NCBI GenBank assembly: GCA_014435945.1
Contig: GCA_014435945.1_4088.1
Length of the DNA stretch: 64,000 bases
Source of the DNA: a phage
Reading direction: 5' to 3' (one strand)
In this document: positions 16,128 through 34,612 of the stretch, in pieces
How the letters are laid out: each line of letters starts with the position of its first letter
How positions within the stretch are numbered: the stretch's first letter is position 1
Notes under the pieces: model-generated
What the model was told of the DNA's origin: nothing
Database searches by the model: none
The model's input: only the letters and a program-made list of their open reading frames with translations
Program-made: the position numbers and the translations under genes

Positions 16128-16439
16128 ATGTTCAATCCATTTTTTGATCCATCAACCATGACCGAGAAAGAGTTACAATTGAAAATTAACGAACAATCGA
16201 TGCGTATTACGTCTGCTCGTGCAGCAGGTATGAGTGATATGATTGTTGGTAACATGCAAACCGTTCTGAATCAGTGCTATGCTGAATTAGAGATTCGTCA
16301 GGGACAAAAAGAAAAAACCTCCTATGATGAACAAGACCCATGTATATTTGACATGAACTCTTACTTAACGGATAACGAAGAGGATCAGAAGAAGAAAAAT
16401 GAAAGTACAAGGAAACAGATTTATAAGTCCCAATGGTGA
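16128..16439 (+). CDS. hypothetical protein
   Basis: 103-aa ORF. Confidence 0.45.
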   Translation: MFNPFFDPSTMTEKELQLKINEQSMRITSARAAGMSDMIVGNMQTVLNQCYAELEIRQGQKEKTSYDEQDPCIFDMNSYLTDNEEDQKKKNESTRKQIYKSQW

Positions 16440-16917
16440 TGTAAAATGTAACCTTAATGCAGTCGTGTATGCAATCAACTGTGGTGCAGATATTCAGTAC
16501 TTACAGCTACAGGAGATTGATGAACCGGAACGATTGAAATTTAACGATAATTGTAAAAAATTTGGTTTAGAACAGCGTATGTTGGATTATACAATAGAAC
16601 ATGATAAAAACCATGAGCTATGGCGTTATGATCCAGTGTACGATAACATCAACTTGCGTGAGTACTTTTTACAGAAATGTACATCGGATGAAGCCCGTGA
16701 ACGTGTAATGTATGAGATTGATTTGTTTGAACATTACAACATGACTAAGCTTTTAAGATGTATGATCTGGTTAGTTGATTATATGGAAGAGCACAATATT
16801 TTTTGGGGTCTTGGGCGTGGTAGTTCAGTGGCTTCGTATTGTTTGTTCCTGATTGATTTGCATATGGTTGATTCTTTGAAGTATAAACTAGATGTAAATG
16901 AATTTTTGAAATGGTAG
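16399..16917 (+). CDS. hypothetical protein with DnaE-like GRGS motif
   Basis: WGLGRGSSVASYCLFLIDLHMVDSL resembles the G(P)GRGS..GS.VAY.L.IT..DP segment of Pol III alpha. Confidence 0.4.
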   Translation: MKVQGNRFISPNGDVKCNLNAVVYAINCGADIQYLQLQEIDEPERLKFNDNCKKFGLEQRMLDYTIEHDKNHELWRYDPVYDNINLREYFLQKCTSDEARERVMYEIDLFEHYNMTKLLRCMIWLVDYMEEHNIFWGLGRGSSVASYCLFLIDLHMVDSLKYKLDVNEFLKW

Positions 16918-16935
16918 AAAAACATGTGATATAAT
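16906..16935 (+). promoter_or_regulatory. sigma70-type promoter with extended -10
   Basis: TTGAAA-N18-TGTGATATAAT followed by inverted repeat. Confidence 0.4.
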
Positions 16936-16980
16936 GTTGTTTGAGGCGTTATATCACTCACATAGAAAAAGGATTTTTAT

Positions 16981-17325
16981 ATGTCAAAACACACAACTTA
17001 TCGTGGAACCACAATTGATATGGATATGCTAAAGTATCAAAACCAGCACCAAGTAGCACTAGGTAATGCAAACCTAAATGCTCGTGGTGATAAGATTGGT
17101 TCAGGTGGTACGGTTATTAAAACCCGTGAAGAACTAATCCAAGAAAAAGAACGTGAAATGCAAATTCCTGATTTCATTCCTGAACACCAACTTCACAGTG
17201 CTGAATATAGTACTGAAGAAGTATGGGATGATGAAAGCTTTGAAGTTCAACCACAAGAACCAGAAGTTGAAGTATCTGAAGAGAAGAAAGCTCCACGCCG
17301 AGCAAAAACTAAAGATCAGGAGTAA
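16981..17325 (+). CDS. hypothetical protein
   Basis: 114-aa ORF. Confidence 0.5.
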   Translation: MSKHTTYRGTTIDMDMLKYQNQHQVALGNANLNARGDKIGSGGTVIKTREELIQEKEREMQIPDFIPEHQLHSAEYSTEEVWDDESFEVQPQEPEVEVSEEKKAPRRAKTKDQE

Positions 17326-17328
17326 TTC

Positions 17329-17655
17329 ATGACCAATAAAGTAATGACAGCTTGTAAAGGTAAAGTTATTGTAACTGAGCTAGAACATGGTGAGCGTAAA
17401 ACCGCAGGTGGAATTGTACTGACAAGTGATGATGGTAAGATTCGTGGTATTCGTTGTCGTTGGGCTAAAGTATATTCTGTTGGTGAAGACATTACCGATA
17501 TCAAAGAAGGACAATGGATTCTAATTGACCACGGTCGTTGGTCGAGAACTATTGAGATTGATGGTATTAAAATGAATCTCGTGGATTATCCAGCAGCAGT
17601 AAGTTTGGTATCTGACACTGATCCACGCATCTCTGCTCAAACATTTGGTCGTTAA
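17329..17655 (+). CDS. GroES-like co-chaperonin (T4 gp31 analogue)
   Basis: 108 aa; GroES-like pattern with mobile-loop-like TAGGIVL and VGEDI..I..G motifs. Confidence 0.5.
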   Translation: MTNKVMTACKGKVIVTELEHGERKTAGGIVLTSDDGKIRGIRCRWAKVYSVGEDITDIKEGQWILIDHGRWSRTIEIDGIKMNLVDYPAAVSLVSDTDPRISAQTFGR

Positions 17656-18007: not shown

Positions 18008-18961
18008 ATGACTACATTATGGACTGAAAAATACCGCCCACAAACTATGGAAGATTATGTATCTAAGAACGAAGCCCTACGTCAGAAGATGGAAGAATGG
18101 ATTCGTACTGGTGATATCCCACATATTGGATTTTTTGGACCAGCAGGGACAGGTAAAACTTCAGCAATCAAAGTACTACTGAATGGTCTGGAAGCTAACG
18201 GACACCTTGACCCTAGTGATGTAACAACACTGAATATGTCAGATGAAGGTATCGATGCTGTTCGTGACAAAATTGATGCAGCAGCAAAACTATCATGTTT
18301 TGGTCGTTATCGTGTATTTGTTCTGGAAGAAATGGAACAAATGAACCACAAAGCACAGGGTAGCTTGAAACGTGTCATGGAAGATTACCATGAAAATGCT
18401 CGTTTCATTCTTACCAGTAATGAACCACATAAGATTCAGAAACCTATTATCTCTCGTGTTCAGGTCATCACCATTGAGAAGCATGATATGGAACAATTCA
18501 TGTCACGCATCTACAACGTACTATTGGCAGAAGGAGTAGATCTAAGTACTGATGAAAGTATTGAACAAGTACAAAAATACATCAATGCTTCATATCCTGA
18601 TTTCCGCAAAACGCTAAACGTATTGCAAAGTTCAGTAGTCGATGGTAAACTTGTAAAACTTGAAGACAGTATTGAGAACTCTGCTGGGTATCGTACTGCC
18701 ATTGTTGATGCACTAAAAGCTGGTAACATTCGTCAAATGCGTGAGCAGATCGTGCAAAACATTCCTGATGATGAGATGGATGCATTCTTCTCTTATCTGT
18801 ATCGTAATGCAGAAATGTTCAGTACTGATGAAATTACTCTAATGAAAATTAAGGTTAAGATTCGTGACGCTGTTGTTAAACAAGCTACTGTGTCTGACCG
18901 TGAAATGAATCTCAGTGCATTACTGTGTGAGATTGACCTAATCTGTTCGGGGAACATGTAA
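18008..18961 (+). CDS. sliding clamp loader large subunit (T4 gp44-like, RFC-like AAA+)
   Basis: WTEKYRP, Walker A GPAGTGKTS, Walker B VLEE, YPDFRKT motif shared with T4 gp44. Confidence 0.8.
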   Translation: MTTLWTEKYRPQTMEDYVSKNEALRQKMEEWIRTGDIPHIGFFGPAGTGKTSAIKVLLNGLEANGHLDPSDVTTLNMSDEGIDAVRDKIDAAAKLSCFGRYRVFVLEEMEQMNHKAQGSLKRVMEDYHENARFILTSNEPHKIQKPIISRVQVITIEKHDMEQFMSRIYNVLLAEGVDLSTDESIEQVQKYINASYPDFRKTLNVLQSSVVDGKLVKLEDSIENSAGYRTAIVDALKAGNIRQMREQIVQNIPDDEMDAFFSYLYRNAEMFSTDEITLMKIKVKIRDAVVKQATVSDREMNLSALLCEIDLICSGNM

Positions 18962-33558: not shown

Positions 33559-34007
33559 ATCCAGGACAGTTTTTCCATTTACTTAGTATTACACCTATAC
33601 CGGATTTAATCAGTGAAGCGAATCAATATCGTGATATAGGAATTGTATCTATGGAATACGATTCACCTGACTTTAAATGTTACGTAACATATGATTTGGT
33701 AGCCTATGAGTCAGAAACTGAGATAAAAAAACCATCATACATTTTTGTGTTCATATATAATGATTATAGTGGTGATCTACTCAATGATGTTCATATTGAC
33801 ACATTTGAAATATGTGATAATATTATAACAGATGATTCATCATGTACATTTGATTTATCAGAAAACAGTACTGAAGAGGCACTTTTTCAGTTGAGTACTG
33901 TTAGTGACACTGTACTAACTCTTGATGACATTGAGAAATTTAAAGAACAGCTTGACGCAGTACGTGAGATGTTCTATAATCATTATCCAGAAATCGAGTT
34001 CAATTAA
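33552..34007 (+). CDS. paralog family A protein
   Basis: STEEALFQLSTVSD. Confidence 0.55.
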   Translation: MLNPGQFFHLLSITPIPDLISEANQYRDIGIVSMEYDSPDFKCYVTYDLVAYESETEIKKPSYIFVFIYNDYSGDLLNDVHIDTFEICDNIITDDSSCTFDLSENSTEEALFQLSTVSDTVLTLDDIEKFKEQLDAVREMFYNHYPEIEFN

Positions 34008-34021
34008 CTAAAGGTATCAAA

Positions 34022-34282
34022 ATGACTAAAGTAGTTCGTAAACGCCACATGATGAACATGGATGAATTTCGCACCTTTGACAAATACCGTACTATGTTTC
34101 GTATGCTGTCACAGGGCCGTCCAATCGTCATTGTAACGGAGAATTACATGTCACCTGAGATGATGTTCGGTAATTATGAAAAGGTCTTCATGTTGTACGT
34201 GAAGCGTGAATTGCTAACGATTAAGACCTTAGCTGAAGCTACAGATGAAGATATGGATGGTGATAATACATTTACCATGTGA
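34022..34282 (+). CDS. hypothetical protein
   Basis: 86-aa ORF. Confidence 0.45.
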   Translation: MTKVVRKRHMMNMDEFRTFDKYRTMFRMLSQGRPIVIVTENYMSPEMMFGNYEKVFMLYVKRELLTIKTLAEATDEDMDGDNTFTM

Positions 34283-34360
34283 GGAAATATATGGCAGAAA
34301 AACCAAAAGAACCATTGGACCGTGATGATGATTTTTACGACGAACGATATGGGGAATCAG

Positions 34361-34612
34361 ATGAGTGAACATCGTGCAGTACTTAAAAAGATTTTAAATG
34401 AACTTGGTGATGAGTTTAATGTTACTGAAGAAGAATATCAATGTTGGAAGAAGGATTTTGAACTCCTTGCTGAGTATGATAAAGTCTTCAATATGATTGG
34501 TGTCATTAGCCAGTACTTACTTGGTGGTGGTCGAGCCAGTGCTTCAATTCTTGCATCTGCGATCATCTGTACTTCTCGATGGTGCGATGAAAAAAGTCTG
34601 GAAGATTTCTAA
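34361..34612 (+). CDS. hypothetical protein
   Basis: Start at ATG 34361 (MSEHRAV) within ORF 34322..34612. Confidence 0.4.
   Translation: MSEHRAVLKKILNELGDEFNVTEEEYQCWKKDFELLAEYDKVFNMIGVISQYLLGGGRASASILASAIICTSRWCDEKSLEDF

What the first reader, a model, noticed from the sequence alone, without database searches (positions are those of the whole stretch)
16399..16917. Small protein carrying a DnaE-like GRGS motif
WGLGRGSSVASYCLFLIDLHMVDSL closely resembles the conserved GPGRGS..GSLVAY.L.ITD.DP segment of DNA polymerase III alpha, but the ORF is only 172 aa. It could be a domain fragment captured from a polymerase or a convergent nucleotide-binding motif.
Basis: partly seen in the sequence, partly recalled or inferred. 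Interest (0 to 1): 0.4.

Follow-up and report, generated by a model that had tools for sequence, protein, structure and literature searches.

The report
Half of a split mini-DnaE polymerase
This small jumbo-phage gene is a real relative of the nucleotide-binding part of the bacterial replicative polymerase (DnaE), and it is the already-described N-terminal half of a two-gene "minimal Pol III alpha" whose catalytic half lies elsewhere in the phage genome.

Summary
ORF 16399-16917 (+) encodes 172 aa, and residues 136-160 are the DnaE-like GRGS segment.

**Homology to Pol III alpha is supported:**
- Pfam PF07733: E 5.8e-9, above the gathering score.
- NCBIfam DnaE models: E 4e-8.

**What the gene is.** The window is a RaK2/121Q-like jumbo coliphage (Asteriusvirus). 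The protein matches E. coli DnaE residues ~280-393 and stops 7 residues before catalytic Asp401. It is a conserved stand-alone family, phrog_11127: 110 clusters of about 170-187 aa when complete, and at least 578 IMG/VR loci. It is neither a stray fragment nor a convergent motif.

**The partner gene.**
- A 212-aa protein (phrog_11778, EcMJ_369) lies ~14.6 kb upstream of the window start in 99.6%-identical genomes.
- It begins at the DIDIDF catalytic motif.
- It also carries the third Asp motif (K-x-D), RPG and K-x-H-A-x-A-Y.
- It has the same phage distribution as the N unit.
- The two were never adjacent or fused in 160 loci.

This matches the split minimal Pol III alpha predicted by Iyer et al. 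2021 (PMC7824862). Assembly and activity remain untested. Verdict: already known, moderately interesting.

The parts
16399..16917 (+). N-terminal (NTP-binding) unit of the split minimal Pol III alpha; 172 aa, family phrog_11127
   Evidence: ORF. phrog_11127 E 3.9e-85 over the full length. PF07733 E 5.8e-9. 100% identical to proteins of phages TH47, Turkey3, vB_Ec-M-J and WPEC3. 110 homologous clusters, about 170-187 aa when complete, all but one carrying PF07733.
16399..16569 (+). Residues 1-57: phage-specific N-terminal extension (beta-hairpin plus helices) with no sequence match to DnaE
   Evidence: NCBIfam DnaE models start matching at residue 58. AF2 secondary structure: E7-9, E15-17, H19-27, H39-54. 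This stretch is less conserved in alignment A3.
16570..16914 (+). Residues 58-172: equivalent of DnaE palm residues ~280-393 (helices leading to the GS loop and the helix after it). Ends at ...NEFLKW, equivalent to E. coli ERFLNP (389-394), 7 residues before Asp401.
16804..16878 (+). GRGS (139-142) is at 16813-16824. This is the G-S loop of the Pol-beta-like nucleotidyltransferase palm, which binds the incoming dNTP triphosphate in DnaE.
   Evidence: G137, G139, R140, G141, S142, S143, V144, S146, Y147, L149 and H155 are invariant in 58 family members. The segment aligns to E. coli G359-P381.
16981..17325 (+). 114-aa protein tightly linked to the N unit (phrog_14844, function unknown). A possible accessory partner; this is tentative and not shown.
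   Evidence: A homolog lies immediately downstream on the same strand in 77 of 80 IMG/VR N-unit loci, and in PA5oct and Atu_ph07. Invariant G9, D13, N33, G36, D37. No Pfam, NCBIfam or PDB match.

Best explanation
The ORF encodes the N-terminal, nucleotide-triphosphate-binding subunit of a two-gene minimal C-family (Pol III alpha-like) polymerase, typical of RaK2/121Q/PA5oct/Atu_ph07-type T4-related jumbo phages.

**Shown**
- It is homologous to DnaE palm residues ~280-393, including the invariant G-R-G-S-S loop and the helix after it.
- It lacks all three catalytic carboxylates and ends 7 residues before the first one.
- A separately encoded ~200-aa protein is present in the same genomes. In vB_Ec-M-J this is EcMJ_369, ~30 kb away from the N-unit gene and outside this window.
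- That protein starts at the catalytic D-I-D-I-D-F strand. It also carries H-x-x-G, K-x-D (the equivalent of E. coli K553/D555), R-P-G and K-x-H-A-x-A-Y.

**Inferred**
- The two polypeptides assemble non-covalently.
- The N unit supplies the GS loop and helix. The C unit supplies the metal-binding strands and a much reduced finger/template-binding part.
- Together they would complete one Pol-beta-like nucleotidyltransferase active site of about 384 aa, with no PHP, thumb, beta-clamp-binding or OB domains.
- The enzyme would act beside the phage's own family-B (gp43-like) replicase, probably in a replication-associated or repair DNA-synthesis step. The N-unit gene sits in the clamp-loader block and the C-unit gene in the primase/helicase block.

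By itself the N unit cannot catalyse nucleotidyl transfer.
For: **Homology**
- PF07733 E 5.8e-9; NCBIfam DnaE models E 4e-8.
- PDB profile search: the top nine hits are all Pol III alpha.
- AF2 model pLDDT 86.
- Foldseek: the top 13 hits are all DnaE or PolC.

**Boundary**
- The N unit ends at the equivalent of E. coli residue 394. Catalytic DFDVDF starts at 401.

**Partner (EcMJ_369, 212 aa)**
- phrog_11778 E 3.9e-106. The sequence begins ...RTDIDIDF.
- D16, D18, D20, H48, G51, K80, D82, R149, P150, K187, H190 and Y194 are invariant in 46 members.
- Its only PDB profile hits are M. tuberculosis DnaE1, with four collinear motif stretches.
- AF2 pLDDT 92. The top eight Foldseek hits are all Pol III alpha, probability 0.66-1.0.

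**Co-occurrence**
- N unit in 101 phage records, C unit in 96.
- Genus counts N/C: Escherichia 34/34, Pseudomonas 11/11, Klebsiella 10/11, Salmonella 8/8, Erwinia 8/8, Xanthomonas 4/4, Yersinia 4/4.
- Both are present in PA5oct, Atu_ph07, Xoo-sp13, RAS14 and Vibrio phage 2.275.O, 14-182 kb apart.

**Constraint**
- pN 0.13-0.18 against pS 0.80-0.91.
- Complete family members are about 170-187 aa.

**Literature**
- Iyer et al. 2021 (PMC7824862) describe exactly such a split minimal Pol III alpha in group 2.2 jumbo phages: an N-terminal NTP-binding unit and a C-terminal Mg2+/template-binding unit in distantly located genes, alongside a family-B polymerase.
- The family-B polymerase is present here as EcMJ_344.
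Against: - No physical interaction, co-folding model or enzymatic activity is available.
- The two genes are never adjacent or fused in 160 IMG/VR loci, so there is no Rosetta-stone fusion to prove a functional link.
- The C unit's sequence similarity to DnaE is statistically weak on its own: PDB profile E 0.2, Pfam finger domain E 0.04. It rests on collinear motifs plus fold matches with Foldseek E 3e-3.
- The thumb is absent, most of the fingers are absent, and no clamp-binding motif was identified. Processive templated DNA synthesis is therefore not assured.
- I could not read Figure 3b of Iyer et al. to confirm by accession that their two units are these two families.
Confidence: 0.72

Rival explanations
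1. The two halves do form one active site, but the enzyme is not a DNA-replication polymerase. It would be another kind of nucleotidyltransferase, for example template-independent tailing, gap-filling or translesion repair, primer-like synthesis, or synthesis or destruction of a nucleotide signal in phage-host conflict.
For: - The combined protein keeps only the Pol-beta-like NTase core and a few finger motifs. It lacks thumb, PHP, clamp-binding and OB domains.
- The phage already has a complete family-B replicase with an exonuclease domain.
- Pol-beta-fold NTases are functionally very diverse (established knowledge).
Against: - The finger motifs that contact the incoming dNTP and template in DnaE (RPG, K-x-H-A-x-A-Y) are invariant.
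- Both genes sit in replication gene blocks: clamp loader, and primase/helicase.
- The closest structures are replicative C-family polymerases, not other NTases.
Confidence: 0.15
2. The N unit works on its own as a non-catalytic protein. It could be a dNTP- or DNA-binding regulator, or a mimic that interferes with or recruits host Pol III components. Its link to the C unit would then be only shared ancestry.
For: - It folds confidently alone (pLDDT 86).
- It has a ~57-aa phage-specific N-terminal extension.
- It is never next to the C unit. Instead it is almost always next to a 114-aa protein of unknown function (77/80 loci).
Against: - The most conserved part is precisely the catalytic-site GS loop. 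That loop has no known protein-interaction role in DnaE.
- The matching phyletic distribution and the exactly complementary boundaries with the C unit would be coincidental.
- pLDDT drops at residues 131-140, where DnaE has the beta-strand that pairs with the DxD strand.
Confidence: 0.08
3. It is a decaying pseudogene fragment of a captured host or phage dnaE, or the GRGS motif is a chance or convergent P-loop-like motif.
For: - It is only 172 aa against ~1160 aa for DnaE and has been annotated as 'truncated' (CBB paper, PMC5259590).
- tblastn of E. coli DnaE does not detect it.
Against: - Complete family members keep about the same length in 110 protein clusters and in at least 578 IMG/VR loci.
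- Synonymous sites are saturated while 76-82% of amino acids are retained.
- There are 15 invariant positions.
- Synteny is conserved from enterobacterial to Agrobacterium phages.
Confidence: 0.02
4. The two halves are joined covalently after translation (split intein) or at RNA level (trans-splicing) to give a single-chain mini-polymerase.
For: - Cyanobacterial DnaE is famously assembled by a split intein (established knowledge).
- Phage dnaE genes can be interrupted: Bacillus phage WH1 has three CDS pieces.
Against: - The N unit ends, and the C unit starts, directly at the homologous DnaE positions. There is no extra ~100-aa and ~35-aa intein half.
- Each gene has its own conserved start and stop.
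- The genes lie 14-182 kb apart.
- No intein or Hint Pfam hit was found.
Confidence: 0.02

Closest known systems
Split 'minimal' DNA polymerase III alpha of group 2.2 jumbo phages, N-terminal NTP-binding unit (Iyer, Anantharaman, Krishnan, Burroughs & Aravind 2021, Viruses 13:63, PMC7824862); PHROG phrog_11127
   Same: - Same phage group: RaK2-like, Atu_ph07-type T4-related jumbo myoviruses with a family-B polymerase.
- Same architecture: a stand-alone ~170-aa protein carrying the NTP-binding subdomain only.
- The partner, with the Mg2+-binding and template-binding parts, is encoded at a distance.
- Full-length match to phrog_11127.
- 100% identical proteins are already in GenBank, annotated 'DNA polymerase III subunit alpha' or 'DNA-pol3-alpha domain-containing protein'.
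   Different: Nothing substantive. This is an ortholog. I could not check the paper's accession numbers because the figure is not held.
[quoted passage not shown] E. coli DnaE, PDB 2HNH/5FKU) and PolC: C-family replicative polymerases
   Same: - Homologous to the first part of the palm, E. coli residues ~280-393.
- It has the G-R-G-S loop of the Pol-beta-like nucleotidyltransferase fold.
   Different: - 172 aa against 1160 aa.
- No PHP domain, no catalytic Asp401/403/555, no thumb, fingers, beta-clamp-binding motif, HhH, OB or tau-binding domain.
- It scores 20-31 bits against NCBIfam DnaE equivalog cut-offs of ~1000-1800.
- It carries a ~57-aa N-terminal extension absent from DnaE.
Split-intein DnaE of cyanobacteria (DnaE-N / DnaE-C)
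   Same: A C-family polymerase encoded by two distant genes.
   Different: - The cyanobacterial halves carry intein halves and are ligated into a full-length ~1100-aa DnaE. Here there are no intein sequences.
- The split point is different: between the GS helix and the DxD strand.
- The sum of the two parts is only ~384 aa.
Multi-subunit split RNA polymerases of phiKZ-like jumbo phages
   Same: A jumbo-phage nucleic-acid polymerase whose catalytic core is distributed over several small, separately encoded polypeptides.
   Different: - An unrelated fold: double-psi beta-barrel against Pol-beta-like NTase.
- A different phage group.
- Those enzymes have been purified and solved; this one has not.

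Membership tests
Split minimal Pol III alpha of jumbo phages, N-terminal unit (Iyer et al. 2021; phrog_11127) | Stand-alone small protein consisting of the NTP-binding (GS-motif) subdomain of the Pol III alpha palm | tested here: met
   172 aa. phrog_11127 E 3.9e-85, positions 1-171 of 171. PF07733 positions 15-95 only. Ends before the DxD.
Split minimal Pol III alpha of jumbo phages, N-terminal unit (Iyer et al. 2021; phrog_11127) | A separate, distantly located gene encodes the Mg2+-binding (DxD, third Asp) and template-binding subdomains | tested here: met
   EcMJ_369 (212 aa, phrog_11778) lies 30 kb upstream of the N-unit gene in vB_Ec-M-J and 31 kb upstream in fEgEco12; both genomes are 99.6% identical to the window. 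It is not inside the window (tblastn best E = 1). Catalytic motifs are invariant. Its fold matches Pol III alpha.
Split minimal Pol III alpha of jumbo phages, N-terminal unit (Iyer et al. 2021; phrog_11127) | Occurs in T4-related 'group 2.2' jumbo phages together with a family-B DNA polymerase, RFC-like clamp loader and related genes | tested here: met
   The window is 99.6% identical to Asteriusvirus-type phages. The gp44-like clamp loader is at 18008-18961. The family-B polymerase is EcMJ_344, with PF03104 and PF00136.
Split minimal Pol III alpha of jumbo phages, N-terminal unit (Iyer et al. 2021; phrog_11127) | The two units reconstitute an active enzyme | not testable with these tools
   This is a prediction in the literature as well.
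Bacterial C-family replicative polymerase (DnaE/PolC) | Palm with GS loop plus three catalytic carboxylates (E. coli D401, D403, D555) in one chain | tested here: not met
   The GS loop is present. The chain stops at the equivalent of residue 394, so no catalytic Asp is in this ORF.
Bacterial C-family replicative polymerase (DnaE/PolC) | N-terminal PHP domain | tested here: not met
   No PHP Pfam hit at E <= 1. DnaE models match only from profile position ~280 onward.
Bacterial C-family replicative polymerase (DnaE/PolC) | Thumb, fingers, beta-clamp-binding, HhH and OB domains; length ~1000-1400 aa | tested here: not met
   172 aa. NCBIfam scores are 16-31 bits against equivalog cut-offs of about 1000-1800 bits.
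Pfam PF07733 (DNA_pol3_alpha domain) | Score above the curated gathering threshold | tested here: met
   36.4 bits against 23.9, but only profile positions 15-95 of 260 are covered.
Split-intein-assembled DnaE | Intein N- and C-halves flanking the split point | tested here: not met
   There are no extra residues beyond the DnaE-homologous boundary in either half, and no Hint or intein Pfam hits.

The most novel reading that the evidence does not exclude
The minimal enzyme may have three parts rather than two. A 114-aa protein (16981-17325) is encoded immediately downstream of the N unit in 77 of 80 loci. It has invariant G9, D13, N-A-R-G-D (residues 33-37) and G43 and resembles nothing known.

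It could be an obligatory third subunit, for example an extra metal- or DNA-binding element or a clamp adaptor. The N unit, this protein and the distant C unit would then form a C-family polymerase stripped to ~500 aa in three chains. Its activity could differ from canonical replicative synthesis.

Either reading would be of interest: a living model of an ancestral Pol III, or a new class of phage nucleotidyltransferase.
Probability: 0.15. Interest if true: 0.65.

Novelty: already known. Interest (0 to 1): 0.33.

Why it matters
C-family polymerases are otherwise known only as ~1000-1400-aa bacterial replicases. A ~384-aa version split into two chains would define the minimal catalytic core of this family.

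Iyer et al. argue that it could also illustrate what an ancestral Pol III looked like, or how far a replicase can be stripped down.

It would also raise the question of why T4-like jumbo phages that already own a family-B replicase keep a second, unrelated polymerase. The family is large: hundreds of IMG/VR loci for each half. I found no biochemical study, so the prediction is directly testable.

For this scan the value is mainly corrective. The ORF is neither a junk fragment nor a convergent motif, and it should not be annotated as a complete "DNA polymerase III alpha subunit".

Tried and rejected
1. **Partner inside the window.**
   - Ten nearby unannotated ORFs (g411, g426-g430, g433, g435, g436, g466 equivalents) gave no Pol III-related Pfam or PHROG hits.
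   - tblastn of the C unit and of E. coli DnaE against the window found nothing (best E about 1).
   - The partner was found only by scanning E. coli DnaE against PHROGs (weak hit to phrog_11778, E 0.17) and then reading the annotation of vB_Ec-M-J upstream of the window.

2. **The adjacent 114-aa ORF as the missing DxD strand.** Its G-x3-D-x-[DE] motif looked suggestive. The true DIDIDF-bearing partner exists elsewhere, and the 114-aa family has no detectable similarity to DnaE or to any PDB, Pfam or NCBIfam entry. I kept it only as a possible accessory.

3. **Readthrough or frameshift into the next ORF.** Both ORFs are in the same frame, but the 63-nt spacer contains three further stop codons. 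Rejected.

4. **Fused or adjacent N-C genes (Rosetta stone).** None in 160 IMG/VR loci within +/-2.5 kb.

5. **Sequence-only proof that the C unit is DnaE-like.** Pfam and PDB profile searches are only marginal (E 0.04 and 0.2). The case rests on collinear invariant motifs plus fold search.

6. **dN/dS.** Synonymous sites are saturated, so only pN and pS could be given.

7. **Supplementary tables and Figure 3b of Iyer et al.** Not held.

8. **Literature on experimental work.** Searches found none.

Full report
**1. The observation**

Residues 136-160 read WGLGRGSSVASYCLFLIDLHMVDSL, at nt 16804-16878. E. coli DnaE, fetched from MG1655, has [23 protein letters not shown] with GRGS at residues 361-364.

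The resemblance is not limited to the motif:
- Pfam PF07733 (DNA_pol3_alpha) matches residues 90-171 with E 5.8e-9 and 36.4 bits, against a gathering score of 23.9. Only profile positions 15-95 of 260 are covered.
- Ten NCBIfam DnaE models match residues 58-170 to their positions ~280-390, best E 4.3e-8. All are far below the full-length cut-offs.
- A profile of 58 family members, searched against all PDB sequences, returns Pol III alpha chains as its nine best hits. E is 0.0024-0.012, matching E. coli residues 320-393.

**2. Where the window comes from**

The region is 99.6% identical to Escherichia phages fEgEco12 and vB_Ec-M-J, and about 81% identical to 121Q and PBECO4. These are RaK2-like jumbo myoviruses; the vB_Ec-M-J record is classified as Asteriusvirus.

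Proteins 100% identical to this one are already in GenBank. Their annotations vary: 'DNA polymerase III subunit alpha', 'DNA polymerase', 'DNA-pol3-alpha domain-containing protein' or 'hypothetical protein'.

The neighbours are:
- an 807-aa virion protein;
- a 103-aa ORF overlapping the start;
- a 114-aa ORF of unknown function;
- a GroES/gp31-like protein;
- a gp44-like clamp loader.

**3. A conserved stand-alone family, not a fragment**

- The protein matches phrog_11127 over its full length (E 3.9e-85).
- A search of 5.8 billion proteins gives 110 clusters. Complete members are about 170-187 aa (shorter entries cover only part of the query), and all but one carry PF07733.
- tblastn finds it in RaK2, K64-1, GAP32, CBB, BF, Munch, fHe-Yen9-04, a Vibrio phage, PA5oct-like Pseudomonas phages, Atu_ph07, SCTP-2 and Xoo-sp13.
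- In PA5oct and Atu_ph07 the gene has the same length. The same neighbours also follow: small protein, GroES-like protein, RFC-like clamp loader.
- Alignment A3 shows 15 invariant positions concentrated in W-G-x-G-R-G-S-S-V-x-S-Y-x-L...H. Nearly every member ends at ...EFLK.
- Against orthologs of 76-82% amino-acid identity, synonymous sites are saturated (pS 0.80-0.91) while pN is 0.13-0.18. This indicates strong purifying selection.

**4. Structure**

AF2 with A3 gives pLDDT 86.2 and pTM 0.62.
- Foldseek against the PDB: the 13 best hits are all DnaE or PolC, with E 0.012-1.6, probability up to 1.0 and TM(query) 0.35-0.47.

[quoted passage not shown] Convergence is excluded. No PHP domain is present.

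**5. What is missing, and where it is**

The multiple alignment with E. coli DnaE shows the phage protein ending at ...NEFLKW, equivalent to ERFLNP (389-394). The catalytic DFDVDF begins at residue 401. The ORF therefore carries the GS (triphosphate-binding) loop of the Pol-beta-like nucleotidyltransferase palm but none of the three metal-binding aspartates.

Iyer et al. [quoted passage not shown]

I looked for the second gene in three steps:
- Nearby ORFs in the window gave nothing.
- Scanning E. coli DnaE against PHROGs gave a weak hit to a 197-position family, phrog_11778.
- The annotation of vB_Ec-M-J upstream of the window shows a 212-aa 'DNA polymerase', EcMJ_369, at 231529-232167. It matches phrog_11778 with E 3.9e-106.

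Window position 1 corresponds to about 246167 of that record. The partner therefore lies ~14.6 kb upstream of the window start and ~30 kb from the N-unit gene. tblastn confirms there is no copy inside the window.

**6. The partner completes the active site**

EcMJ_369 begins MQDSTNSNSYRKARTDIDIDFKD.... It takes up at the DxDxD strand where the N unit stops. Across 46 members the invariant positions fall into these motifs:

| Invariant positions in the C unit | Equivalent in DnaE |
|---|---|
| D16, D18, D20 | DFDVDF (D401, D403, D405) |
| H48, G51 | – |
| K80, D82 | KFDFLG (K553, D555) |
| R149, P150, K152 | RPG motif of the fingers |
| K187, H190, Y194 | K-S-H-A-x-x-Y |

Further evidence on the partner:
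- Its only PDB profile hits are M. tuberculosis DnaE1. They are weak (E 0.2) but consist of four collinear motif stretches.
- Pfam sees only a marginal finger-domain match (E 0.04).
- AF2 on P0111 (95% identical) gives pLDDT 92.1 and pTM 0.78.
- The eight best Foldseek hits are all Pol III alpha, with E 0.003-0.3 and probability 0.66-1.0.
- The family has 786 clusters; the 120 best listed are 190-220 aa apart from one partial entry. IMG/VR holds at least 590 loci.

N plus C together are ~384 aa, against 1160 aa for DnaE. The thumb (E. coli 433-510) is replaced by about 27 residues. The span from the K-x-D motif to the RPG motif is 67 residues in the C unit. PHP, clamp-binding, HhH, OB and tau-binding parts are absent.

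**7. Linkage between the halves**

The phage records holding N (101, including a few true full-length DnaE hits in Clostridium and Bacillus phages) and C (96) have matching genus counts:

| Genus | N unit | C unit |
|---|---|---|
| Escherichia | 34 | 34 |
| Pseudomonas | 11 | 11 |
| Klebsiella | 10 | 11 |
| Salmonella | 8 | 8 |
| Erwinia | 8 | 8 |
| Xanthomonas | 4 | 4 |
| Yersinia | 4 | 4 |

Distant genomes have both genes, 14-182 kb apart:
- PA5oct: N unit at 187.5 kb, C unit at 143.9 kb.
- Atu_ph07: N unit at 240.8 kb, C unit at 58.3 kb.
- Xoo-sp13: N unit at 144.1 kb, C unit at 129.9 kb.
- RAS14: N unit at 189.8 kb, C unit at 204.5 kb.

In 80 + 80 IMG/VR loci with 2.5-kb flanks the two are never adjacent or fused. 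The split is old and stable.

Each half has its own conserved neighbourhood:
- The N unit is followed by the 114-aa protein in 77/80 loci and by the GroES-like protein in 74/80. The clamp loader is present within the flank in 36/80.
- The C unit is preceded by a zinc-finger protein in 74/80 loci and lies near the primase in 55/80.

Both neighbourhoods are replication blocks. The phage's main replicase is a gp43-like family-B enzyme, EcMJ_344, with PF03104 and PF00136.

**8. Mechanism**

Shown: homology, complementary boundaries, conservation of every catalytic motif across both proteins, matching distributions, and purifying selection.

Inferred: the two chains associate non-covalently to form one Pol-beta-like active site.
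- The N unit would contribute the GS loop and helix that hold the incoming nucleotide's triphosphate.
- The C unit would contribute the metal-binding strands and residual fingers.

The N-unit model loses confidence exactly at residues 131-140. This is the stretch that in DnaE is the beta-strand pairing with the DxD strand. That fits a sheet which is only completed by the partner.

The substrate and role are not known. Possibilities are second-strand or repair synthesis, as Iyer et al. suggest, or some other nucleotidyl transfer. Covalent joining by a split intein is excluded, because no extra sequence is present at the junction in either half.

**9. Novelty and verdict**

The family and this interpretation are in the literature as a computational prediction:
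- Iyer et al. 2021 (PMC7824862).
- The CBB paper, which noted a 'truncated' 172-aa Pol III alpha (PMC5259590).
- The Atu_ph07 paper, which listed gp316 (PMC6102473).

Identical proteins are in GenBank. I found no experimental study.

The finding is therefore real and correctly spotted. The thing itself is already known. Interest is moderate because the system is remarkable and untested, but this window adds no new kind of object.

Noticed in passing
window 16981-17325 (+): A 114-aa protein (phrog_14844, unknown function). A homolog sits immediately downstream of the N unit on the same strand in 77 of 80 IMG/VR loci, and in PA5oct and Atu_ph07. It has invariant G9, D13, N33, G36, D37 and G43, with [DE] at position 15 in 72 of 78 sequences, followed by a variable charged tail. 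No Pfam, NCBIfam or PDB similarity. It could be an accessory factor of the mini-polymerase.
   Followed up: partly
window 16906-16935 (+), with inverted repeat about 16926-16958: A near-consensus sigma-70-type promoter: TTGAAA, 18-nt spacer, TATAAT; 11 of 12 matches, with a TG extended -10. It straddles the N-unit stop codon just upstream of the 114-aa ORF and overlaps an imperfect hairpin, GTGATATAA...TTATATCAC. This suggests the 114-aa gene may start a separate (early?) transcription unit.
   Followed up: no
window 16128-16439 (+): A 103-aa ORF (phrog_15348, unknown function) overlaps the N-unit start by 41 nt. It is conserved only in close relatives (7 of 80 loci).
   Followed up: partly
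window 17329-17655 (+) and L006:19719-20021 (vB_Ec-M-J EcMJ_349): The phage group carries two GroES/gp31-like co-chaperonin genes. One of them is part of the conserved N unit / 114-aa / GroES-like / clamp-loader block (74 of 80 loci).
   Followed up: no
L003 (Bacillus phage vB_BceM_WH1, LC597490.1 194353-198551): A full-size phage dnaE is annotated as three consecutive CDS (gp235, gp236, gp237) separated by 0.4-0.7 kb gaps, presumably introns or homing elements. The first break falls shortly after the catalytic DxD region.
   Followed up: no
L006:34516-35226 and 33690-34535 (vB_Ec-M-J EcMJ_367, EcMJ_366): A 236-aa protein with an N-terminal C2H2-like zinc finger and a 281-aa protein with no Pfam hit. 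Their homologs accompany the C unit in 74/80 and 52/80 IMG/VR loci, next to the primase and the DnaB-like helicase. They may be further replication-module components.
   Followed up: partly
PHROG phrog_11165 (782-position profile): A phage DnaE family whose profile starts near the GS-loop region (E. coli residues 306-384 match profile positions 25-103). This appears to be a PHP-less single-chain phage Pol III alpha, a possible intermediate between full-length DnaE and the split minimal form.
   Followed up: no
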